A stretch of DNA of 63,628 nt, filler included, from Rhabdomonas costata (Eukaryota), in NCBI GenBank assembly GCA_019059605.1. It is 26 parts of 26 records of this genome, joined end to end, with 100 filler letters (N's around TTAATTAATTAA, not from the genome) between each part and the next. Parts side by side here need not be neighbours in the genome. Positions count along the whole stretch, not along the records: positions 26,974 to 29,334 come from JAHMHO010003874.1; positions 29,435 to 31,782 come from JAHMHO010003875.1; 24 more parts are not named here. The stretch is one strand, 5' to 3'. The position numbers and the translations under genes are program-made. The notes below the pieces were generated by a model that was not told where the DNA came from, did not search any database, and saw nothing but the letters and a program-made list of their open reading frames with translations. How positions within the stretch are numbered: the first letter of the stretch is position 1; each line of letters begins with the position of its first letter. Shown here piece by piece: positions 26,417 to 61,309 of the stretch.

Positions 26417-26873
26417 ATGGCTGCTGATCCTCAGGAAACCCTTGAGAAGCTCTCAGAATTGACGAAGCGTTGGGAGAAAAGTAAACCTCGCCCTTGCTCC
26501 AGAGCCGCCTTTCTTAACGAGGTGCAAAACCTCCGTGATGCGCTTGAAAGAGCAGGTGACCTTGGCCTGTACGCTCTGACTGCGCTGGTTAAGGCCTATG
26601 GACTCGAGGTGGTGGACTGCGTGGAAGGCCTTGAGTGGGTACGCTCCAAAGTTAAGGAGACTGGCCTTGCTGTAGATACCTGGTACTACTTTGACCTTGT
26701 GAAAGCGTATTGCGTGAATGGCAATCACGGAGAGAAGCTGGCAGAGCTTCATCGCGAGATCACAGACTCTGGACTTGCTTGCAGCCCGGGGATACTGAGA
26801 GTACTGTGCCAATCATATAACAAGTGCCAAAACCGTGAGCAGCAGCGAGAGGGATTGAATGCCCTATGGATGG
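26417..26873 (+). CDS. PPR-like helical repeat protein, 5' part
   Basis: ~36-aa repeats ALTALVKAYG..KETGLAVD / YYFDLVKAYCVNG..TDSGLACS / ILRVLCQSYNK; T-tract plus AG upstream of the ATG. Confidence 0.65.
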
Positions 26874-27077
26874 NNNNNNNNNNNNNNNNNNNNNNNNNNN
26901 NNNNNNNNNNNNNNNNNTTAATTAATTAANNNNNNNNNNNNNNNNNNNNNNNNNNNNNNNNNNNNNNNNNNNNTCCCCGGCATAAGCCGGTACGTGTCAC
27001 TCCGACCGGGCGTAGCCATGCAGGAATACCCTGGGGTTCGTGAGCGAGTGGAGGCAGCTTATGCTGGGGGAACGAGT

Positions 27078-27345
27078 GAACCACTGCACTTCTAGGAGGA
27101 GATGCGAACGTAGTGAGCATCGACGACATCAAGAACCTTAGGGCCCCCACGAAACGCAGTGAGTGGGGATTGGAGGCATGAACGTAGTGAATGCCGACAG
27201 GATACAGGAACGAGGGAGCGCAGCGACCGAGTGACAAGCAACATCTTCTGTATCTGTGAGGGAGCGTAGCCGCACCGCGGTGGAGCGACCGAACCACTGC
27301 ATTTAGGAGGAGATGCTGACCGTAGGGAGGCATCGACGACATCAA
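27078..27345 (+). repeat. Two ~55-bp direct repeats with internal hairpins (27078-27132, 27291-27345)
   Basis: GAACCACTGCA..TAGGAGGAGATGC[loop]GCATCGACGACATCAA occurs twice. Confidence 0.9.
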
Positions 27346-28789
27346 CATCTTTTACCCCTAGAGGCTCATCGTCGCTCCCCACCATTTAAGGTGGTTCGCT
27401 CCTCTTCACTCCCTCAACCCCAACAGCCTATACGTGTCACTTCCCTCGCTCCCCGACTCACATCGGTACGCTCGGTCCGTCCTTGGCGTAGCCGTAGCGA
27501 ACATCCTTACTCAGGGTTACGCTTTGACTTAGCGTTGGGTTTCGAGGGTTTCAGTTGGCGTTGGGTTACCCCTTCACTCTCTTACACCCTTCTACTCCCC
27601 TTCACCTTAGGCTTACGTTGGGGTGTCGGGTCTTTGCCTCTGGTCTCACCTTTCACCTTCCCTCTCAACGTCACGGGTTAGGCATCCCAGCTACGTACTC
27701 AGCACTCTCGACATCCCTACTGGCATCGAGGCGTACCTTTCACCCTGAGTTACCCTTCCACGCTAATGTTGGAGATGGGTTACTGGTTGCCAAGGTGTGG
27801 GTCCGTTACCATGCAAGGGATTGCCGTAGCGTTACCCTTCTACCATGGTCATCACCATCACCATTGGCCTCAAGCAGCAGGATGTCACGCATCGCATTAC
27901 CTTAGCCCTTAACCCTGTAGTGGTACAGCAACTCTACGACAGAGTGTGTCCTAGGGTGGGTTCAGCGTACGTATGCTGACAACTGGTGCTTGAGACGGTC
28001 ATACTCTGCAGCATCGATCCTACGACAACATCACCTTTACCTCTATGTGTGTGGGTTCCCTGTAAGGATACGCCTACTACTACCATAGGGTTAGTGTATG
28101 TGTGTAGGTCTAGCGCATAGTTCCAGCTGTGTGGCTATTCCATCCTATGTGGTAGTGCCTACTCCAGTGGGTATGACCGCTTGACCACTACCACTATCGC
28201 CACTACTACTGCACGTGGGTACATCAACTGGTTTATACCTATGCATATACGCATGGTTATACCCTATGGTTGACTCCTGCACTCAGCCTCATGCGAGACA
28301 GTGATAGGACGCCAGACTCCCTGGGGCTCACAGGCATTGCCATACGTATAGGTATGGTTACCCAGCAAGCTCACCCCAGGCACCAACATCGGGCTCAGAC
28401 ACATGGCGTGAGTGTACTAGGTGCAGATATACGCATGGAGACGCATACCCTTACCGTTCGACCGTTACCCATGCACCTCACCTCATGTGGGGCTGGTGTA
28501 CGTCATAGCCTAGCATCCATCACTAGGTCTTTCGTCAGAGGGACCGCCCCCTGGAACAGCACTGTGCCACTCAAGGTAACATACACACGTATTTCCAGGC
28601 GAACCTGACACCACCGCACAACCCAGACGTTGAACTTCAGGGTGACCAGCCCTTACTACTCGCAGCTACTGGGATACGTTGGCTTGCTTATTTTCGTGCA
28701 GCGCGTATTATGAAGAAAGTCCTTTCTACCACTACCGACCTTGTCCTGGATCCGCAGACCCTTACCTAGCTACCTTCAAAACCGCCCTC

Positions 28790-29160
28790 CGAAGAGAGAA
28801 GAGGAACCCGAGACCGAGACCAAAAGCCCAACCACCAACTCCGATACCCAATGCACCCTCAACTCGCAGACACTCACCAGACCTAAAACCTCCACCCCAG
28901 AATGCCGAATACCAGGAATACCACCAATACCGAATACCACCAATACCGAATACCGAATACCACCAAGACCTAAACCCATGACACCAAACCCCGACACCAA
29001 AAGGCCTCGAAACCCAACCCCTAACCCCGAAACTCAAAGACAGAACCCGAATACCAGAAAGGCCGATACCTAACACCCTCAACTCGCGAGCACTAACCCC
29101 AACCCCTAAGAGGAACCCCGAATACCAGAATGCAAGAACCCAAAAACCTTAAATACCCGA
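28790..29160 (+). repeat. C/A-rich degenerate repeat tract
   Basis: Many CCGAATACC/CAATACC units, ACCCTCAACTCGC twice, GAGGAACCC twice, CTAACCCC twice. Confidence 0.85.
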
Positions 29161-29856
29161 GGGAATTTCTAAAGGTGGGGGGATGCCCGCAAGGGGACCC
29201 CAGGAAGAGATGGAGTGGGGGTGCACCCCCCTGATGCTGGATTCTAGGTCCCCCTAAAGGTCGATGGAGGGGTGGACGTGAGGTGGGATGGGGGGTGCAG
29301 GTCACCTGGGCTAAAGGACCTCCACACCCCCCCCNNNNNNNNNNNNNNNNNNNNNNNNNNNNNNNNNNNNNNNNNNNNTTAATTAATTAANNNNNNNNNN
29401 NNNNNNNNNNNNNNNNNNNNNNNNNNNNNNNNNNCCCGACCCCGTGGAGGAGCTGGTACGGCACGTGCCTCTTTTTGCATCTATTAAGCAGCTATGCGCT
29501 GTTATTGAGCAGTTGAGCGCTGGCGCGGAGCGCACCATAGCTGCTTAACAGCACGGCGTGGGGTGCCAGGTCACCTTGTGTGTGTTGGGCGGTCAAGACC
29601 CCGTGAGGGACTGGCTTCTTGCATCCATCTATCGACGGTTTTTTTATTACTATTATTACTCTTCTGCGAACAAAACAGTGTTAGCGCGGGATGGTGTCCT
29701 TTGTATGCGTCTGTTTGAGGTTCTCCCATCCGTTAATCGGTCCACAAAACGCCAACAAATAAAACTCGGAGGTGTGAGTCATCCCAAAGCTATCACTAGC
29801 AAGCTCAATTTCCTAACTGTTAGGATGCGTGAGCAATGGTTTTTTATATATTTCAG

Positions 29857-36782: not shown

Positions 36783-38901
36783 GGTGTTGGGTGAGATGTG
36801 GGTGAGATGAAGGCGGGCCAGGCACCACCGTTGCACACGCCCAGGGAAGTGCTGTAGCAGGAGCTGGCGAAGGAGAGCAGGAAGTCCTCCTGGGTGGAGG
36901 TCACCCCATCCGAGGTGACCTGTACCACTCTGCCAGTGCCGACACCGGGGTAGTTGGCGAAGATGATCTGAGACAGGATGGGGACAGGGGCAGAAGCCGC
37001 GAACAGGAGAATCCATAAGTTGACGACCCAAACAGATTTTTTCATGCGTCCAGGGTGCTTTCGCAGTGAATGGGGAAGGCTTAGTCAAGTGCCACACAAA
37101 AGAAACGCAGTCACCACTTTCTGCAACCATTTTTTTTTCATTTCGGCGATCAACGCGCAAGCACAAGCTCACACAGACAGGGAAAACCGCAGAGAGGATG
37201 TAACGCAAGAAAGAAAAAGGGTTGTTGTTATCCCCCCCTTTTTTTGTCTTCTGATGGGCAAAGGCGTCCCAAGGTTATCCGAACAGGAACAGGAAAAACT
37301 GAGCCTTCGAAGATCCAGCAGAACGAAAGTCCAATTCGGTAACATCACGCCGAGACTAACTTCCATTGAGGACCGACGGGCATCGGTAACATGCATACCG
37401 TGGTTTCGTTTCGAAATAAGATGACGGGGACAATAGCGGGCTTCGAAAGCACAGGCTTCAACAGCACCGCAGCAAACTTCACGCCCAGGTTGAGCCCCGT
37501 GATTGTGACATTGACGGTCCCTGTGGAGGGAATAAGAAGAGAGCCGTGCTGTTTTTGCTTACCTGTGGTATAACACTCAAGGTAGACATTTCAAACGGAG
37601 AAAACAGACGGAGCAGATTAAGTTCAGACGCAAAGGCCAGCGCGACGTCTCGAAGCGGTGGTGGGGAAGTGCCATACCTGGGCGCTTAGCACCAAGGGTA
37701 CTGTGGCCATGAGTGTGTGAGGGCATACACAGCAGATACATCCGAGCAGATACACATACAGGCAGTGAAACCGAAGGAAGCACCTGAGACGGGACACAGC
37801 GAGGTTGCCTTGGGCTGGGCGGAGGTGTCCCCGGGGCAGCCCAAAATTGCTGTCAGCACAGGCGGGAGTACAAAGGAGACTAGCACGCTGCTGGCCGACA
37901 GCCGACCCGCGACCTGAACGACACAGACATAAATAACATCGAAAGTGTGTGGTGAGGCACTGGCCGGGAGTCACTCCCTTGTTGTGTGGTGTACTCCTCT
38001 CTGTGAGGATCAGACTACCCAGGGAAGGAGAGTGTGACATCTGAGTCCTTCGCAAAGTTGTGAAGTGACCACTTGTGACTACTTCGAAGGCATGACTGTA
38101 TGGCACACGGCATATTTACACCGTATATGCCACACATATACAGGTGCTGACAATATCCTCTGCTTCTGCTTCTGCTTCTGCTTCTGCTTCTGCTTCTGCT
38201 TCTGCTTCTGCGCACTTTTCAGTTTCGGTTTCTGCTGCTGAATTCAGAAACTTCCCACCCACCCACATACATACCACAATCCCAATCGCGATGTTCGCCC
38301 CGCCTCCGGTGAAGCCCAGGCACTGCGCCGTGGTGTCCGAGAGCACGGTGGCGGAGGTGCACTCGAAGTACGCGTCTCTGCCGCGCACGCTGGCGTTGAA
38401 GAGGGCTCGCGTGGTGCCGTTCAGCGCTACCACAGAGACCCGGCCCTTCGTCAGGAACCGCGCCCCAGTGAGGGTCAGCACCTGAAGCCCACACGGCAAC
38501 TAGGTGCAGCACAGTTGGATGGAAGAGATCTGGAATAGGTGGCCTCCGACTGGGCGGAAAGGAGCTCCGGGGTTGGGGACACGGCAGCGACAGGGCAAGA
38601 TCGAACTTGTGGAAGCCAGGATCTGGGCCCAAAGATGACCGGGTAGCCTCCAAACAAGCTGAATGGGCTGGGAGGAGACGTGAAAATAAAGTGCCCACCC
38701 AGGCTTGTTCAAGTCGGACTCCCCACCTGAACGCTGAGAACACACTTGGCTCTGGTTGTTGGGCATGCACAGCACGGTGTGCGTGGGCTGGAGGTCCGTG
38801 CACCCCGATACGCCCAGCAGCACGGGGTAAGGGTCCACCAGGGTCACCACCACAGCCAGGTCGGCATCATTGGTCATGTTCCACATGTTGGTTACCCAAA
38901 C
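36783..38901 (-). CDS. IPT/TIG-like repeat surface protein, partial, about 5 exons
   Basis: Repeated P(V)LxxVxGC..TxxC..VLTLTGxxF / VTITGLNL beta-rich modules; canonical introns. Confidence 0.6.
38159..38211 (+). repeat. (GCTTCT)n microsatellite, intronic
   Basis: About 8 perfect hexamer copies. Confidence 0.95.
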
Positions 38902-39239
38902 CTGCCCCCCCCCCGAATGGAATGGTTCCGATTGGTGAGCAACGGTAAGGAGAGACGTGATGGCTCTAGGACAACCGCCACTTCGCGCACACGCACACAT
39001 CCGCACACGAACACGTAGGGCGGGTGGTGGGGCGGCACAGTGGAAAAGAGCCCGAGCGACCCAGACCGAGCGGCCGAGCGGCGTGAAGCTTGCAAGGATC
39101 AAAACACGCTTGGGTCCCTATCCCACAACAAANNNNNNNNNNNNNNNNNNNNNNNNNNNNNNNNNNNNNNNNNNNNTTAATTAATTAANNNNNNNNNNNN
39201 NNNNNNNNNNNNNNNNNNNNNNNNNNNNNNNNTTTTGGG

Positions 39240-41257
39240 GGTTGCGCCACAGGAAAGTCGGTCTGCATCCAAGTTTTCGCACAGCTGACTGGCTCTAAGG
39301 TAGTTTCCATCAACTGCTCCAGTGACACCTCTGACCAAGACATTTTGGGCAGCTACCTGCCTGTGAAGGGGGAGGGCACGCGTACATTTGACTGGCGCAG
39401 CTCTGAACTGGTCCGAGCCATCTGTCCCAGGGGAGAGGTTTCCAGCGCAATGGCAGCTTATCAGCTGTCTGCTCGCGGTCGGCCACAAAGCCGCCCTGGA
39501 AGTGCTAACCCACGATCCCGCCTGCCCCACCTCGACAAGTCAGTGGTGGTCTTTGAAGACCTCGACCAGGCGTCCACTGAGGTTCAACAGCTTGTCGTTC
39601 CCTTTCTGGATACCCGGCACCCCGTGCTTTTTGTTGAAGACAGAGCTGTACCCGTGGACTGCGCCCACATTGCCATGTTCGCCACTCGGACGACCACTGA
39701 GATGGCCGCTTCGGCGTCGAGGTTGGTTGTCTCTCAGCACCTTGTTGTGTCCCAGCAGGACGCTCTGAGCGGCGCCGAGGTGGGAGCCATTGCCTGGAAA
39801 TATCTCAGCATGTGTGGGCTTGAGGAGCCGGTATTTGAAGAGCTCCTGGGGAGCCTGTTGGAAGAGCTTCCCAAAATGCTCCAACACAAGGAAAGTGACG
39901 AGGTGCAGAGCTTCAACCTGCGGGACGTACTGAAGTTCTGCGAGGTATTCCGCAACCTGAAGAGTAACTGTAGCCACATCCTTCTGGCGGATCCCATTCT
40001 TTTGGGCTGCTATGCCGCCCTAATGGTATTTTCGGAGTGCCACCTCCACCGCGAAGATCGCGAGCGTTCTCGCGAGTACATTATCACGAAGCTCGGAGTG
40101 AGCCCCGCCAAGCTCTTCCCGCTGAACATCAGCAACGACGGGACCATCGGTCATCTTCAGCTTCGGAGGAACGCGTTTGGGGAGGAGCCCGGGCACGCCA
40201 TCGGGGAAGGCCGGTTCGTGTACACGAGGCACTCCACTCGGCAGCTGCAGAAGCTAACGATGCTCGTCATCAGCCGCCTGATGGTTATTCTGGAGGGCCC
40301 GACGTGCAGCGGGAAGACTGAGCTGATCCTGGAGCTGGCTGCGCTGTGTCGGCAGAAGCTGGAGATCATCCCGGTGCATGCCGAGACCGAGATCAGCGAC
40401 CTCCTCAGTGGGTTCAAGCCCCTCATCGTGGGCGGGGATGGCCCTGCCTGCGCTGAGCTCAACGCGGTGATTGGGCTTCTGGTGAATAAGATGAAGAAGT
40501 CCGAGGTTCTGGCATTTTCGATGGAAATGATGAATGCGGTACGTGTGCTCTGGGCCGCTGTATGTGGTGTTGGGTTTGGTGCTGACATTCCCTGTGTGGG
40601 GTAGAATGATTTCGTTTTTCACAGGGAAATGAGTGGAAATCTATCGTGGCGGTGGTTCGGGATTATGTCCAGCGCTCTGAAGATTCGGAACTTGAGACTC
40701 GCTTTGATGCGCTGCTTTGCTACGAGAACATCGACCGCGAGGCGTTCTTTTTGGCTGAAGGTGCGCTGATTCCGGAACTCTCCTGGAGACCAGGCGCTCT
40801 GCTTCTTTGACCTCTTTTGATGGAAGGCAATACTTGTCATGCCACCGGGAACCATAAAGACCTTTGTCTGAAGGGGCTTAATTGGGCGAGTATGCACAGG
40901 ACCCGTGACTTTTGGTTGTACCGCTTTCCATTGTGGATTTGTCGCCAAATGGACCGCACTGAGGTTTTCGCATTTCTGGTGCGGCGTGTGGGAGTATAGA
41001 GTATAGGTGCTGTGTTTCAGGTCGCCTTCCCAAGGCGATGCGGCAGGGCCATTGGGTGCTTCTGGAGGGCCTCAGCCTGGCCCAGCCCAGCCTGCTGAGT
41101 TTCTTGTACCCCTACTTGGACTCTCGCCGGGATTTCGCTGGTGGAGCGGTGCACCCTGGCTTCCGCCTGCTGGCCACCAGCAACGCTGCTCGGCAGGGCA
41201 GCAATGGAGTGCCCCACGCTATTGTCAACCGCGGTCTCCGGATGTGTCTCCCCCCAG
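39240..41257 (+). CDS. Midasin/dynein-related tandem AAA+ ATPase, partial; exons to 40538, 40625-40760, 41021-41257
   Basis: Walker A ATGKS and LEGPTCSGKT, DILGSYLP, FNLRDVLKF, AMRQGHWVLLEGLSLA, HPGFRLLATSN. Confidence 0.8.
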
Positions 41258-41280
41258 GTCTGTGTGCGGCAAGGTGGTTC

Positions 41281-41319
<39 letters not shown>

Positions 41320-44300
41320 TGTAACATCTGAAATTCCTTTCCTTTGTCTTTTCTGCCTTTTTTTCTCACTGTTGCAACCGATAAGGACGCCGCAACCAAA
41401 GGCCTTTGTTTCTATAAATGAAAAGTGATTTAGATGGTAAGCACGTGATCACCCGTAAAACCTCAGAAGCTGTCTCCTTCTCCACCCGCCACATTACGCG
41501 GGGAAAAACGAGGAGCTATCCTTTTTCTATTCTTGCAGTGGACGAGGCCTGCCGCTTGCCCAAGGAACCCTCTTCCCCCCCCAACNNNNNNNNNNNNNNN
41601 NNNNNNNNNNNNNNNNNNNNNNNNNNNNNTTAATTAATTAANNNNNNNNNNNNNNNNNNNNNNNNNNNNNNNNNNNNNNNNNNNNGGTGTTGGTGCAGAG
41701 CGATTTTCCTTCGAGACCGACTTCTCTTAGCTGGTTCCTACGCATACACACGAGAAGAAATGTGTTGCATTCAACACTTTGTCTGAGGAAGTCTCTCTCG
41801 CTGTGGTCTGTTTCGCTGTGGTCTGTTTACTTAAGCTTTGCCTTTAAAGCTTTCTTCTCCTCCCTTATTCGCCCTTCTTCGACGGCGGGAAACGGGGCTA
41901 CGTCCTCAAATCCAGAAGGTCAAAGAGAACCATGCCTGAAGTATTCCTGGTGAAAAAACATGCGACGACTGACAAAGTCTTTCCAGCTTGTTCGTCAACT
42001 CGAAACCTCCGCCGTATCCCGCTCTCCCTCGTAGATGGCTTAGCAACCTTTGTAAGCCCCGAGCGCTCCAGAGCAGACATCACCCTCTGCAGCGAAGACC
42101 GGTACCGCGGGCTCAGCCCAATGTGCAGGAAAACCGCCAGCGGGGCCGCCGGGGGCTCCACCACGGGCACCACAACATTGGTGCGCGCATTGTTTGCTTT
42201 AAAGGAAAAAGCCTGCAAGCCAAGTCAGGTTCAAACAATGCACAACTGAGTGCTGAGGGAACAAATGTGAGCTCCTCCTAAGTTAAAGTTCCAACAGTGG
42301 GAAGGCAAAGCCGGGCAGAATGCTTCCGTTTCTGGAACGCGGACCACAAACAGACAAACCAGAAAACTTAGCGCTTCTCAAGTTACTCGATGTCCCGATT
42401 CCTGGATGCTCACATTTCGTGGAAAGATAAACACTACCAATTTTAGGGAGCTTACTCGCGCCCTTGCGAGAACAAGCAGCGCAGACGCCATTCGTCAATG
42501 ACGTGGCTCGCGCCCCTGCGATGACAGCTCTGATGATTAGGTCTACCGTGAAGTCATGTGCAGTGAAGTCACGCAAAGAATGCCAATAACTAGAATCGGA
42601 AGACGAATAGACCCTGCCAGCTGATTCCACCGACGCGCCGGTGTGTGCGGGTTCCCTAATCCAACTGTGTTCCCGAATTTCCAAAGTATGCTCTTAAAGG
42701 AGGAAGAAGCAGAGGCTTGTAACAGGAGTTGTTGTGTGGGGTTCGCACTCTCGCACAAGTCCATGGCTTGAAGAGCCCCGTCCCTTCGTCGGAGCGATAC
42801 CAAACGGGAAGACCTGCTAAACATAACGCAATAACGCGAAAGGCGTAAAAAAGAAGAGAACAGAAAAGACATACATCCCATCCGGGAAAAAACTGGAAAA
42901 AATGCATTTTTGTCAAATCATTCAAAAAACACTCTTACCTCCCACAAAAAAACGCGCGTTGGAGGACTAAGAGAATTGCAGTAGCATGAGCAGTGTCTCG
43001 AACACACGCGTCCTTCGTGGGGGTGGACAACAGGTATGGGGAAACACTCGCTGAGTTTTCTCTTTTATTGCTCTAACACTGAGCACTGAATCGAAGCTGA
43101 CAAGAAGAGTAATAGATTTCTTGGTGTGGACTGTCCAAAAGTAAGAAATGTCAGCGAAAAGGCATCATGTCAGTGATTTCAGACTTTTTCTCTGAAGGTT
43201 AAGGGAAGTTTGAAGGTCGACTGGCCATAAATTGGAGGATCGACAAACACGGGAGTTTGAAAGGTGTAAACTATTAAAGAGCTGGTAGGGCTGAGACAAA
43301 CAGTACCAAATCAAGAAATCAAGGAGAGGGAACTCGTCCCGACGTCATCGCAGGAACAATGCACAGTGATGTCCCAGTCCAGGAAAACCTGTATGTCCGC
43401 ACCATACCCGGCATTGCGGTCTTTCACCATTTACAACACAACGTTTGCCACTTTGACTGCACACGTGTTGGAGTGTATACGTTCAGACCAATCACTGTTA
43501 TAAACTTCGATTTACAACCGGATTGAAAAAAGCACCAAACGCTCTAGAAGAAATGCATTGCCCTGGGGTCAGGTTCACATTTCACTGTGGTATGGCATCA
43601 GGTCTTGGCTAAGTGCATGTGTTTAGATGGTGACCTCAGTCTACGTACGTCCCTGCATACACCCTACGCTTGGTTTCAGGATGGCCCTCAGAGTGGTGGC
43701 CTCACGACATGTGCTCGTACCATGGGCCCCCGGCCTCTGCGTATGGGTTATGCGCTCTGGGTGGAGGCATCCGAGCAGGGGCATGGCACGCTATGCATCA
43801 CGTATGGCCTATATGTGGAACTGACACAAGGCCTGGAGGATGTTGGTGGGCATCTGCATTTCCGCGTGGGGTTATAAGTTGACATTTTGTGACCCGAAAC
43901 CACAGTGCTTACGGTGGGTCGGTTAGGTGTGTATATGTGCTCTGCCTGTATGCGTGTGGTTATGTGGTTGTGGTGGGGTGTTTATCTTGCGCAACCGGTT
44001 GCTGGTGATGCAAGATAAACACCCCACCAAAACCCNNNNNNNNNNNNNNNNNNNNNNNNNNNNNNNNNNNNNNNNNNNNTTAATTAATTAANNNNNNNNN
44101 NNNNNNNNNNNNNNNNNNNNNNNNNNNNNNNNNNNTTGTTTTGGTTTGGTTTGCTGTACGCTTTGCTGTACTCATTCGCGGATGCAGTGCTGGGCAGTGC
44201 TGGAGTTGATCTCCAATAAGTCGGGTTGCGCTGCGAGAAACCGCAGGAATTAGATTACTGCCTGGCTTCCGCTTAACTTTTGCGTAATAATGTTTAAACG

Positions 44301-46974: not shown

Positions 46975-48180
46975 GTGTCGACACACATCACCCCAGCTCA
47001 CAGAGGCCGATGGCTGTCAGTGTTTTTTTTTGTGTGTATCCTCTGAACAGAGTAATGCGTTTCCACGTTTCGGACGTCCCAAGGGTTCGCGCAGAGTTGT
47101 TTAGTTCACTTATCGCGGTACGCTGATTGTGTCATCCCCAAGCCCGGTGATTTTTTTTCGTTTTGTGCCGCAATAGTTTTGATTGATTGCTTCGCGTGCG
47201 CGGTGCACTTTTCTCGGCATGGAGGTTCTCACTTTTTGTACGTACGCGTATTCACTTTCGTCTTTCACCGCAGCTTGCTCCGCAGCATCCTCTGGAGCGG
47301 AGGCTGTACACGAAGTTCCCGAACTCTTGGCGTATGTGGGCTGGTGGGCAGTGTGGGACTGATTGATGCCAGGTTGCCAGTGAAAGCCAGATGTCCGGTC
47401 TGAGGGCTGAAGGGCACCCCCCCCAGAGAACCCAAATGTACCTGCCGCCCTGGAGATAATTGGTCGCATTGCTCTAGTCATCCCGAGAACAAAATAAGGG
47501 GAACAAGAACACTTGAACCTTGGTGCCTTTGGAAGGTCAGCCTGTTTGGCCGGGGCCAGGGAGTGTTTGGGGTTGTTATGGGTACGGGTATGTTTTGCCT
47601 CCCCCCTCCATTTGGTCACAAAGAGCTCATCGTCCACTGAATATTGCAGAACAAGAATTGGGCCAGCGGAAGGCAGTGAAGGTTGTTTCATGTTCACCCC
47701 CACACACACACACACGCACACACCTCCCCTTACACACGTATCACACCTTCCCAGTGAACTCGTTATTTATTTAACCCTGCCTCACACGAGAAAAATTTAT
47801 GTGCCTGGCGAACAATATATAGGGGGTGCCCCCCCTCCGGAGGAACACATGTTTCATCGGGAACTAATGAAAGCCGAAGAGGAAGTCGAAATGTGTACAA
47901 ATGTGTACGAACAGAAGTGGAGTCGTGCTTTTCCCTTGCACCTTCGGCAGGAAAGCAGCCTAGAAAGCACCTTGCCGGTTTCCCTGTGGTTTCCCTGTGG
48001 TTTCCCGCTGGTTTCCCGAAGTGCGATCCGGAAGTCTCCTCACTGGGACCTTTGTTTTGACTTTTCTAAGGCATGTTTGCATTGGTGTCCTTCGCTTCTG
48101 TACGCGACTCCCGTCTCTCTCACCGCCCTTCCCGACTACCGCCGCATCTATTGTATCCCGCCACAACCCCCGCTTCTCTT

Positions 48181-48337
48181 TCTTCTTCTTCTTCTTCTTC
48201 TTCTTCTTCTTCTTCTTCTTCTTCTTCTTCTTCTTCTTCTTCTTCTTCTTCTTCTTCTTCTTCTTCTTCTTCTTCTTCTTCTTCTTCTTCTTCTTCTTCT
48301 TCTTCTTCTTCTTCTTCTTCTTCTTCTTCTTCTTCTT
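48181..48337 (+). repeat. (TTC/GAA)n microsatellite, about 52 units
   Basis: Uninterrupted trinucleotide run. Confidence 0.98.
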
Positions 48338-58832: not shown

Positions 58833-60876
58833 TGTGGTTTTTGTCAAGTCGTTTGTACACTTGTCGGATGGAGTGCAGGTGTTCATAAATCGCGTTGAAT
58901 ATTATAACATCGCCATAGTACGCTCCGGCAAAGTCACGGAGATCGTACAGGACAAAGTACGGTAGAGGTGGCATAACACAACACAAAGTGCATGACACTG
59001 TAGTGAAACGTGCCATAATTAGTCTTAAATGAAATAACGTGGACGTGCTTTGGGTACACTCGGATTTGGTGAAAGCCAGAGTTGAGGTCAATCTCGGTGA
59101 AGTAGCAAGCCTTCCACACATGGTCAATCATTTCGTCAATACATTGTTGTATTTACGCGTCTACTGTAGTGATTGCGTTCAAACGTCGGTAGTCAACACA
59201 GCGTGTAAGGTTTACGTTAGCATTGGGTGCAGATATGATGCCTGCTCCGAAAGGAGACACTGTGTGTTCAATGAATCCGAGATCCGTTAGTTTCTGAGAT
59301 GCTTTCGCAACCAATTATCTTCAGTGGTGGACAATCGGTAGAGTCGTTGATCTGGAACTATGGCTTCCTTTACTAGGTCGACTTTGTGATCAGTAGGCAT
59401 GGAGGGGGCATACATGCAAACTCTTTGTTGAGTTCAAAGACCTCCTTAGGTACGGAGGCCTTGCGGATTTTGTGGTAGAGGTTTTTGCTGGATCTCAACG
59501 AGACGTCTTGGTGCAGCTTTAGTCTTCTCTTGGATTCGGTTATGCTAGGCTAGAAATCTGCCAATATCTATCGGAGAGTTCCCCGGCGTCCTCTGAAGAG
59601 ATTTCAAAAATATCGAGTGGTTGTGAGGACTTCTCCGAATCAGCTAGGGGGCATCTGCATTGGCTGGTTTGCCTGGGTTTGCCTTCCATCTGTCTTGATA
59701 TCCACATGCTCTGGAAGTCGTCGGTGAGAAATCAAATCGACTCGTCTGGGCTTCTGCTACTCTGGTCCATTGTCACGCAGCGCCATTGCGTGGGGCTTGA
59801 TTAGCCTTTCTAGCCATTTAGAATACGTCATACGCAGGTAGGGCTGTGATCTTGTAGGTGATATCATGCCTAACAATCTGAACTTGGAGCTTTCTCCAAT
59901 CCACTCAAGTTTGATGTCTGAGAAGAAAGGTGTAGCCCAATACTACTGGAATGGGGGTGGAAATCACACGGAAGAACATACGCAAAGGCATTTTTCTAAG
60001 CAATGCGGACACTCTGACAAAGGTGTCGACCACCAAGGTTGTTCCGTTAGCGACTCTGAATGAAACCAACTGCTTCAGAAGCCTGCGCGGTATGTGCAGT
60101 TCAGTGACCAGGGCTTCGCTCATAAAGCAATCTTAAGCTTCTGAATCCAACAGGGCTGGCACTACATGTTTTCCAAATGTAAGCTGTAGGAAAAGTAGTG
60201 GCCTCGGCGGCGTAGAGTCTGGTCCTTCTTCAATAGAAACTTCATCGTCAGTGACCAACCGCTCAGGAAACAAATTTTCAGCTTTAGTTCTTCGAAACCA
60301 AGTAGTTGTTGCAAAAGAAACGTGGGGTTGGGGAAAGGAAAAATAATTTGGATGTTTTAGCATTCCTGGTCGATATCCCAGCGTTAACTGCTCAAAACGT
60401 CGCTTGACATGGGCACTGACCGCATCTCACATGACATTTGTTCTGTGTTGCGGTTGTACTGGTGTTCCACAACAGCGTAACGCACGTGAGTCGAACTTCC
60501 CTCAGTGGTGGAAGTCTCGGAACGCACGATGACGGTCGTTATTTGACTTGACACATATTGGCACATATTGACACGTAAGGGGTGCAACGCACACCGAAGA
60601 CGTCGCATCAAAACCGGCACAGAAGCAACCCTCATCTAGCGGTAAAGCGGTCGCTCTAGTTCCTGCTGTCGTCTTGATGACATGAGTCAAAGTTTTCAAA
60701 AGAAGTGGAAGTATACTTCAAACCTTTCCTTGATCCAAACGAGACTCAGATAGGCTACTTACGTCTCTTCAGAATAACTTGACCACTCAACACGAGCGGT
60801 TTTCTTCGCCGTTCGCAACACACGCATATCCGTGGGGTGTTCGCCGCGGGCGCGTTGTCGCTGGAAGATGACTCAT
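58833..60876 (-). pseudogene. Decayed Ty3/gypsy gag-pol (gag remnant, aspartic protease, N-terminal reverse transcriptase)
   Basis: Protease ALLDSEA..FMS..VANG..VVLGYTFL; RT FTEIDLNSGFHQIRV..G.F.Y.VM.F and AYYGDVIIF (YxDD mutated); many stops and frameshifts. Confidence 0.9.
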
Positions 60877-60893
60877 TTTAAATTAAGCCCAAC

Positions 60894-61170
60894 GCCTCGT
60901 CTCCACCATGTAGTCCGTATTTGCTGATACAAATTACCGTACAATACTTGTAACACTCTCCACAGCTCTACACAACAACACGTTCCGTTGTGGACAGCGT
61001 GGTGCTCACCCTCACCCTCACCAGGCTCCAATCTCATCTCCATTCCCAGTCTGACCTCTCAAAACCAACGCTACGCCCTCCGTCTCCACGTTCTACCGAC
61101 ACGCTACCAGACAGCCTGTGCTACTCTCTCGGTGACTCGGTCATCCTCTGATGACATTCTCTGATTAAGC
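60894..61170 (-). mobile_element. 5' LTR (partial, ends at 60909) and PBS (60908-60894) of the gypsy element
   Basis: Minus strand ...GGACTACA followed directly by TGGTGGAGACGAGGC, then an ATG at 60876. Confidence 0.7.
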
Positions 61171-61309
61171 CCCCAACACAANNNNNNNNNNNNNNNNNNN
61201 NNNNNNNNNNNNNNNNNNNNNNNNNTTAATTAATTAANNNNNNNNNNNNNNNNNNNNNNNNNNNNNNNNNNNNNNNNNNNNTTTTTGGGTGACACTTTGC
61301 ACGTCGCAC

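What the first reader, a model, noticed from the sequence alone, without database searches (positions are those of the whole stretch)
26974..29334. Contig built like a mitochondrial minichromosome or small extrachromosomal replicon
Seen: unlike the other 25 contigs it has no exon/intron signal and no poly-T or poly-A tracts. It has four zones: a hairpin cluster (26975-27500), an A-poor arm (27500-27680), a ~1.1-kb unique core rich in TAC/CAT/TAG (27690-28780), and a T-poor C/A-rich repeat arm with terminal GC palindromes (28790-29334). Established: euglenozoan mitochondrial genomes are often multipartite; diplonemid chromosomes have shared constant regions around a gene-module cassette and kinetoplastid minicircles have conserved regions plus cassettes. 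Inference: this may be one member of an undescribed multipartite mtDNA or plasmid family, from the host or from a co-amplified organism.
Basis: partly seen in the sequence, partly recalled or inferred. Interest (0 to 1): 0.75.

Follow-up and report, generated by a model that had tools for sequence, protein, structure and literature searches.

The report
Gene-less contig with two-way hairpin cluster
This small piece of DNA is clearly unlike the host's nuclear DNA and carries a cluster of unusual G-A-zipped hairpins facing both ways, so it may be one fragment of a many-piece mitochondrial genome, but it holds no recognisable gene and nothing yet shows where in the cell it sits.

Summary
The zones are real. 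The contig is the compositional outlier of 26 (TA o/e 1.14 vs 0.43-0.68). The 'hairpin cluster' is eight G.A-zipper hairpins: six on the + strand (27040-27340), then two on the - strand (27364-27477), switching where purine skew peaks (27339); paired bases change together between two paralogous copies. The arms are weakly inverted relatives. The 1.1-kb core has no codon periodicity and no protein, rRNA or tRNA match, also under TGA=W/TAG=Y; an LSU-rRNA likeness failed. Circularity, copy number and shared arms were not shown: no terminal overlap, no look-alike contig, no genome or reads available. Best reading (0.4): a gene-less piece of Euglena-type multipartite mtDNA with a divergent single-strand initiation region; rivals are a nuclear mobile-element relic or DNA of a co-amplified organism. 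A diplonemid or kinetoplast minicircle is not supported. This scan already noted G.A-hairpin arrays and mirror-skewed gene-less contigs elsewhere in this assembly. One hairpin matches 22/22 in 18 actinobacterial plasmid records (E about 2), probably by convergence.

The parts
26974..29334 (.). Whole contig, 2361 bp, 54% GC, no recognisable gene; ends are assembly/amplification ends
27040..27340 (+). Six G.A-zipper hairpins on the purine-rich + strand (27040-27081, 27095-27127, 27167-27203, 27207-27235, 27256-27294, 27306-27340); four have three tandem GA/GA steps and a GTA or GCA triloop. A seventh, single-step hairpin at 27145-27169 is read by eye
   Evidence: 6 observed, shuffle maximum 2-3, 0 of 500 at k=2 and k=3; none on the opposite strand
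27040..27132 (+). Copy 1 of a two-hairpin unit duplicated 213-216 bp apart
   Evidence: (69 nt, 84%, E 6e-14)
27256..27345 (+). Copy 2 of the unit; against copy 1, three pairs change on both sides, one goes G-T to G-C, one T-G pair is inserted on both sides, GA steps unchanged
   Evidence: 31 of 31 cells paired; only two sequences, 61 of 500 shuffles as high
27210..27231 (+). 22-nt zipper hairpin identical to an intergenic stretch of Microbacteriaceae plasmids
   Evidence: 18 of 19 matching records at 99% or more, E about 2
27339..27364 (.). Strand switch: cumulative purine skew peaks at 27339; hairpins change from + to - strand
27364..27477 (-). Two G.A-zipper hairpins on the - strand (27409-27364 with four tandem GA steps; 27477-27442 with two)
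   Evidence: two or more in 1-3 of 2000 shuffles; four steps in 0 of 2000
27500..27690 (-). Left arm, A-poor on + (T-poor read outward from the core); shares words with the right arm in inverted orientation, 14 nt exact at 27534-27547
   Evidence: (10-20 of 1000 shuffles as high)
27690..28780 (.). Unique core, TAC/CTA-rich, AAA/TTT-poor, no codon periodicity, no protein or RNA family match
   Evidence: (chi-square p 0.54; host exons p below 2e-6)
28780..29150 (+). Right arm, T-poor and A/C-rich, built of short repeated words with a 16-23 nt tandem at 28900-28970; inverted 14-mer at 29005-29018
29150..29334 (+). G-rich tail with simple GC palindromes and three copies of a 7-mer; last about 13 nt probably primer-derived

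Best explanation
A fragment of a small extrachromosomal DNA molecule, most likely one gene-less (or unrecognisable-gene) member of a Euglena-type multipartite mitochondrial genome. Shown: alien composition; two back-to-back sets of G.A-zipper/GNA-triloop hairpins that can fold on one strand only, + strand left of about 27350 and - strand right of it; skew reversal there; inverted, repeat-built arms round a non-periodic core. Inferred: when the region is unwound, each set folds on its own strand, resists single-strand-binding protein and serves as a loading site for a primase or a T7-like mitochondrial RNA polymerase (as for RepB'/ssiA and the N4 virion polymerase), so synthesis starts divergently: leftwards on the + template, rightwards through the left arm into the core on the - template. 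The arms are recombination-shuffled repeats and the core is selfish or decayed cargo. Inferred only: mitochondrial location.
For: Composition outlier among 26 contigs. Zipper hairpins beyond shuffles on both strands, with 5 of three or more GA steps here and 0 in the other 25 contigs. Compensatory changes between paralogous copies. Skew switch coincides with the strand switch. GNA mini-hairpins are far more stable as DNA than RNA and occur at replication and transcription starts (PMC13037366, passages and section 4.2). The identical 22-mer lies between genes in plasmids, on the template strand 90-230 nt upstream of ardC, glutaredoxin-ssb-parB or DUF3846-parB genes in 3 of 3 records opened (of 19). 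E. gracilis mtDNA is a pool of 1-9 kb linear molecules with repeats and non-functional gene pieces (PMC4700960; PMC4806707). Unchecked leads: earlier notes report euglenid-type cox1, cox2, cob with TAG=Tyr and a nad5 piece in A-poor repeat DNA in this assembly.
Against: No mitochondrial gene or fragment in six frames under TGA=W, TAG=Y, nor rRNA. GC is 54%, close to the host contigs (46-56%) and far from the 25% of E. gracilis mtDNA. No look-alike of the contig, hairpin zone or right arm, although origins of one organelle genome should be shared. The zipper design is generic: 4 of 6 viral loci fetched by pattern carry it, beside HNH, helicase or radical-SAM genes and no replication initiator. 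Standard DNA energies do not favour the zippers (z from +1.4 to -2.0 for 9 hairpins); the fold rests on sheared G.A pairs. The covariation rests on two sequences (61 of 500 shuffles). Host lineage unconfirmed.
Confidence: 0.4

Rival explanations
1. Nuclear relic or non-autonomous member of a mobile element that moves through single-stranded DNA or RNA (Helitron/HUH-like or Penelope-like), the hairpins being its cis signals.
For: GC like host contigs; many G.A-hairpin contigs reported across the assembly and one beside a Penelope-like fragment (earlier notes; unchecked); unique, diverged sequence with local duplications.
Against: TA excess and near absence of A/T runs are unlike all 25 other contigs; no transposase, Rep or reverse-transcriptase remnant in six frames of 27500-28800 or in the ORFs; no exact terminal repeats, though the ends are not true ends.
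Confidence: 0.25
2. DNA of a co-amplified organism, virus, satellite or plasmid (non-coding control region of a small replicon).
For: Foreign signature; the same hairpin design in plasmids and phages; the assembly shows amplification-primer ends; earlier notes report virus-like contigs in it (unchecked).
Against: 2.36 kb without any coding signal is atypical of bacteria, phages or plasmids; no BLAST match at E 0.01 in 72,556 plasmids or 50,697 phages; duplicated motif absent from viral and metagenome collections; no sigma-70 excess (1 against 1.5).
Confidence: 0.2
3. One reading: a circular cassette chromosome of diplonemid or kinetoplast type whose core holds a cryptic gene module, guide RNA or the missing euglenid mitochondrial LSU rRNA.
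For: Inverted flanks round a unique core recall Namystynia class X chromosomes, and empty chromosomes exist in diplonemids (PMC7049700); purine skew changes sign at only two main points, 27339 and 28790, as a circle would allow; core folds somewhat better than shuffles (z -1.4 to -3.1); a two-block LSU likeness reached 1 of 300 shuffles in one setting.
Against: No constant region shared at over 90% over 100 bp; arm symmetry is weak; no exact CSB-3; LSU likeness not significant in 15 whole-profile settings, 63 of 300 in the second two-block setting, and E 1.5 with a covariance model; SSU likeness rank 25 of 26; folding excess ranks 3 of 26 contigs; no terminal overlap.
Confidence: 0.1
4. Ordinary low-complexity nuclear non-coding DNA or an amplification chimera.
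For: Fragmented amplified assembly with primer remnants; no homologue anywhere.
Against: Internal repeats are 78-84% identical with compensatory changes, not the near-100% copies a template switch makes; hairpin counts beyond all shuffles.
Confidence: 0.05

Closest known systems
Euglena gracilis mitochondrial DNA (PMC4700960, parts 2-4 of 6 read; PMC4806707 and PMC8130358, passages; Spencer and Gray 2011 seen only as cited)
   Same: Small molecule in the 1-9 kb range, rich in short repeats, low or no gene content.
   Different: 54% GC against 25%; no gene or gene fragment recognised; no G.A-zipper control region is described in the text read.
Diplonemid mitochondrial chromosomes (PMC3035467 and PMC5658414, passages; PMC7049700, abstract and first third of Results)
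   Same: Unique core between repeat-rich flanks; inverted flank words as in Namystynia class X; origin suggested by a skew switch; empty cassettes exist.
   Different: No shared constant region found; no module; core of 1.1 kb against cassettes of about 300 bp in D. papillatum; circularity not shown; host reported as euglenid in earlier notes.
DNA mini-hairpins GCGNAGC at single-strand initiation sites: G4 origin, RepB'/ssiA, N4 virion RNA polymerase promoters (PMC13037366, passages and section 4.2)
   Same: GNA triloop closed by a C-G pair; strand-specific; candidate primase or polymerase loading site.
   Different: Here stems are extended by two to four tandem G.A steps and arrayed, six on one strand and two on the other; no cognate protein is encoded.
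Intergenic hairpin of Microbacteriaceae plasmids near ardC, ssb and parB; resembles Frpo-type single-strand promoters of plasmid leading regions (recalled, not read)
   Same: One hairpin identical over 22 nt.
   Different: Single zipper per plasmid, E 0.4-2, no flanking similarity: convergence on a constrained motif, not homology.
Dinoflagellate plastid minicircles (PMC2665238, abstract) and Stylonematophyceae mitochondrial minicircles (PMC10250338, passages)
   Same: 2-3 kb scale (dinoflagellate); structured non-coding core plus cargo; raised GC in the red algal case.
   Different: Those carry recognisable genes and a shared core; gene-less minicircles were not detected in the red algae.

Membership tests
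Diplonemid mitochondrial chromosome | Cassette-flanking constant region shared with other chromosomes (>90% over >100 bp; PMC5658414) | tested here: inconclusive
   None in the other 25 contigs (best E 0.12) or the scan index; whole assembly not available.
Diplonemid mitochondrial chromosome | Gene module in the cassette | tested here: inconclusive
   No Pfam hit in six read-through frames, no Rfam hit; short divergent modules would escape these tests.
Diplonemid mitochondrial chromosome | Circular molecule | not testable with these tools
   No terminal overlap, but ends are amplification ends; no reads.
Kinetoplast minicircle | Conserved sequence block CSB-3 (12-mer, recalled) | tested here: not met
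   No exact copy; best in the contig has 1 mismatch at 28489 inside the core; 12 window-wide matches at up to 2 mismatches against 6.0 expected.
Kinetoplast minicircle | Guide-RNA gene complementary to an edited mRNA | not testable with these tools
   No mitochondrial mRNA of this organism available.
Euglena-type mtDNA molecule | Carries a full gene or fragments of cox1-3, cob, nad1/4/5 or rRNA | tested here: not met
   proteins, tables 4 and TGA=W/TAG=Y; rRNA. No euglenid query sequences were available, so short fragments can be missed.
Euglena-type mtDNA molecule | Small molecule rich in short repeats | tested here: met
   true length unknown.
Euglena-type mtDNA molecule | AT-rich (25% GC in E. 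gracilis) | tested here: not met
   54% GC (PMC4700960). GC of this host's mtDNA is unknown to me.
Euglena-type mtDNA molecule | Located in the mitochondrion, high copy number | not testable with these tools
   No depth or reads.
Mitochondrial LSU rRNA, domain V | Conserved peptidyl-transferase loop sequence and helices | tested here: not met
   nhmmer from 120 prokaryotic loci: no hit; covariance model from 41 of them: 3 bits, E 1.5; by eye the A2451 strand and A-loop are missing (context).
Bacterial plasmid or phage | Dense coding, Rep/Mob genes, sequence match | tested here: not met
Subtelomere | Tandem TTAGGG/CCCTAA array (recalled euglenozoan repeat) | tested here: not met
   Three scattered CCCTAA and one TTAGGG; no such array.
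Transposon (TIR, Helitron, Penelope) | Transposase/Rep/RT remnant, defined termini, target-site signature | tested here: inconclusive
   No ORF remnant; termini and flanks not in the contig.
Single-strand initiation mini-hairpin (GNA triloop) | C-GNA-G loop on a stem, one strand only | tested here: met
Single-strand initiation mini-hairpin (GNA triloop) | Priming or transcription start activity | not testable with these tools
   Needs bench work.

The most novel reading that the evidence does not exclude
Heterotrophic euglenids keep a GC-rich mitochondrial genome of many small chromosomes, most of them gene-less, each replicated and transcribed from a divergent array of tandem-G.A zipper hairpins read as single-stranded DNA by a T7-like polymerase or primase, whose sequence drifts between chromosomes while the fold is kept; some cores would hold the still unidentified euglenid mitochondrial rRNA pieces or genes.
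Probability: 0.15. Interest if true: 0.75.

Novelty: new variant of a known kind. Interest (0 to 1): 0.42.

Why it matters
How the many small molecules of euglenid mtDNA are replicated is open, and the LSU rRNA of E. gracilis mitochondria was still unidentified in the papers read (PMC4700960, PMC4806707). If this cluster is mitochondrial it gives a concrete, testable origin/promoter and a structure-based probe to pull the whole chromosome family out of a fragmented assembly. Whatever the compartment, it is natural comparative evidence that long tandem-G.A zipper DNA hairpins are under selection. If it is a nuclear relic or passenger DNA, it is one more example of a motif this scan has already noted many times.

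Tried and rejected
Whole genome and sequencing runs were unavailable. Protein coding: 19 ORFs under table 4, 6 under TGA=W/TAG=Y against Pfam and NCBIfam, six read-through frames against Pfam and PHROGs (best PHROG E 0.03, unknown function), PDB, 1.84 billion representatives for the 270-aa + frame and the 5.8-billion set for the 210-aa - frame: nothing; the other four frames were not searched against these large sets. No periodicity. RNA: Rfam, tRNA (99): nothing. LSU domain V likeness at 27881-27990 seen by eye: rejected; a metagenome scan with a pattern made from it gave 20 loci, 17 bacterial 23S with indels and 3 unrelated, none like the contig; viral scan 0. SSU 3' end likeness at 28540-28610: rejected. 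Core as structured RNA: z -1.4 to -3.1 but rank 3 of 26 contigs. The AGGAGG word before ATG in the cluster is a hairpin arm, not shown to be a ribosome-binding site. Relatives: plasmids and phages, pattern scans: no homologue. Host lineage: quinone-oxidoreductase exon best hits 63% or less to diatom, bacterial and unnamed proteins, midasin exon no hit, PPR-like ORF uninformative. Paper searches found no description of G.A-zipper arrays in euglenid mtDNA; the library lacks most subscription papers, including Spencer and Gray 2011, and the supplementary alignments I looked for were not held as searchable text.
Full report
Setting. The window is 26 contigs of about 2.35 kb joined by spacers. Several carry exons of ordinary eukaryotic genes (AAA ATPase, quinone oxidoreductase, ion channel, ABC transporter; 5 of 15 ORFs tested had Pfam hits) next to GT-AG-like introns read by eye. 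33 of 52 contig ends carry 10-19 G/T-only (5') or A/C-only (3') bases, which I infer to be whole-genome-amplification primer remnants; contig ends therefore say nothing about molecule ends. No genome, reads or depth were available. I could not place the host myself; earlier, unchecked notes call it a euglenid with mitochondrial genes using TAG for tyrosine, a code published for a heterotrophic euglenid (PMC8219788, section 8 read).

Observation. The contig is the outlier of 26: TA o/e 1.14 against 0.43-0.68, trinucleotide divergence 0.116 bits against at most 0.056, 7 A/T runs of four or more against 14-43. GC (54%) is not unusual. The zones are as described, plus a G-rich tail. Two statements are overstated: contig 58833 also lacks runs of six, and splice-like words are not scarce.

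The hairpin cluster. Standard folding is unremarkable. What is special is a ladder of short Watson-Crick rungs alternating with tandem GA/GA steps, often capped by a C-GNA-G triloop. A scan for two or more such steps finds six hairpins on + in 27040-27340 and two on - in 27364-27477; five have three or more steps, against none in the other 25 contigs. Shuffles keeping di- or trinucleotides: 0 of 500 reach six on +; on -, two hairpins in 1-3 of 2000 and a four-step hairpin in 0 of 2000; neither set folds this way on its opposite strand. A two-hairpin unit is duplicated (84% over 69 nt). Between the copies all GA steps are kept, three pairs change on both sides, one G-T becomes G-C and one pair is inserted on both sides; with two sequences this is suggestive only (61 of 500 shuffles; slid controls give 0 double changes), and the structure was derived from these sequences. 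The cumulative purine skew peaks at 27339, at the strand switch, and bottoms at 28790, the core/right-arm border. The two-strand arrangement is the new anatomical point.

Arms. Read outward from the core both arms are T-poor. They share 6-8-mers in inverted orientation (44, 22, 12 against 5, 1, 0 direct), reached by 18, 20 and 10 of 1000 shuffles, with one exact 14-mer. This is weak relatedness, not an inverted repeat. There is no telomeric array and no terminal overlap.

Core. No codon periodicity (p 0.54; three host exons p below 2e-6). No hit in Pfam, NCBIfam, PHROGs or PDB under table 4 or TGA=W/TAG=Y, none for the 270-aa + frame among 1.84 billion representatives or the 210-aa - frame. 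No Rfam or tRNA. Because the euglenid mitochondrial LSU rRNA is unidentified (PMC4700960), I tested a likeness to domain V at 27881-27990: not significant in 15 whole-profile settings built from 120 prokaryotic loci, 1 of 300 and 63 of 300 in two post-hoc two-block settings, E 1.5 with a covariance model from 41 loci; a metagenome scan gave 17 of 20 bacterial 23S with indels and 3 unrelated. An SSU likeness failed. Folding excess (z -1.4 to -3.1) ranks 3 of 26 contigs. The core is best called non-coding or decayed; short divergent fragments cannot be excluded without euglenid queries.

Relatives. None at E 0.01 in plasmids or phages; the duplicated motif is absent from viral and metagenome collections; nothing in the other 25 contigs or the scan's sequence index. 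The design, however, is widespread. A zipper pattern found 6 viral loci, 4 with a true zipper at the match; neighbours in the 5 loci scanned were HNH, helicase and radical-SAM genes, no initiator. At relaxed E, 27210-27231 is identical in 18 of 19 matching plasmid records, with no annotated feature under the match in the 15 rows listed; in the 3 opened it lies on the template strand 90-230 nt upstream of ardC, glutaredoxin-ssb-parB or DUF3846-parB genes. These E-values (0.4-2) do not show homology; I read them as convergence on a signal used on single-stranded DNA. The link to plasmid leading-region promoters is recalled.

Mechanism. GNA mini-hairpins are much more stable in DNA than RNA and occur at primase and N4 polymerase start sites (PMC13037366). 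I infer that the cluster is a divergent single-strand initiation region: on unwinding, the + set primes or transcribes leftwards and the - set rightwards into the core. Mitochondrial RNA polymerases are T7-like, as is the N4 enzyme (the former from general knowledge). Folding in vivo, activity and compartment are all inferred.

Compartment. Against: 54% GC versus 25% in E. gracilis, no gene fragment, no shared origin sequence. I give mitochondrial 0.4, nuclear mobile relic 0.25, co-amplified organism or virus 0.2, cassette minicircle with cryptic gene 0.1, artefact or plain low complexity 0.05. The diplonemid class criterion (PMC5658414) and kinetoplast CSB-3 are not met on what could be tested.

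Novelty. The scan has already noted G.A-hairpin arrays and mirror-skewed gene-less contigs on other pieces of this assembly. This contig joins both features and shows the strand switch. Eight paper searches found no account of such arrays in euglenid mtDNA, but the library lacks key papers. Other papers seen: PMC8061765, PMC7194472, PMC8130358, PMC3035467, PMC10250338 (passages), PMC2665238 (abstract), PMC11014236 (listing only). Verdict: a real, odd, unassigned element; interest 0.42.

Noticed in passing
window, 33 of 52 contig ends: 10-19 G/T-only bases at 5' ends and A/C-only bases at 3' ends: probably amplification-primer remnants; terminal features of any contig in this assembly should be distrusted.
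   Followed up: partly
window 58833-61181: Second most divergent contig by trinucleotides (0.056 bits), 47.5% GC, CpG o/e 0.91, no A/T run of six; may be foreign DNA.
   Followed up: no
window 39234-41330 (+): Long exon with AAA_5 and a dynein-heavy-like P-loop hit, midasin-like by my reading.
   Followed up: partly
window 26420-26869 (+): ORF whose nearest Atlas clusters are pentatricopeptide-repeat proteins (0.95-0.96; recognition below threshold); no Pfam hit.
   Followed up: partly
window about 48150-48300 and 38100-38160: A long trinucleotide microsatellite and a hexanucleotide repeat seen as homopolymer or dipeptide runs in ORF listings.
   Followed up: no
L155:2501-2533, L156:2501-2533, L157:2501-2533: Conserved G.A-zipper plus further GNA mini-hairpins on the template strand upstream of ardC, ssb or parB-linked genes in actinobacterial plasmids; a candidate single-strand promoter or initiation signal, unannotated.
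   Followed up: partly
L150-L154 near position 1000: Intergenic zipper-type hairpins in phage contigs, two of them upstream of HNH endonuclease genes.
   Followed up: partly
window 27869-27994 (+): Predicted 126-nt imperfect rod closed by a 12-nt inverted repeat, enclosing the rejected LSU-like words.
   Followed up: partly
window 29169, 29254, 29311 and 26992, 27432: A 7-mer three times in the G-rich tail and a 9-mer twice at the borders of the hairpin cluster; possible protein-binding sites.
   Followed up: no
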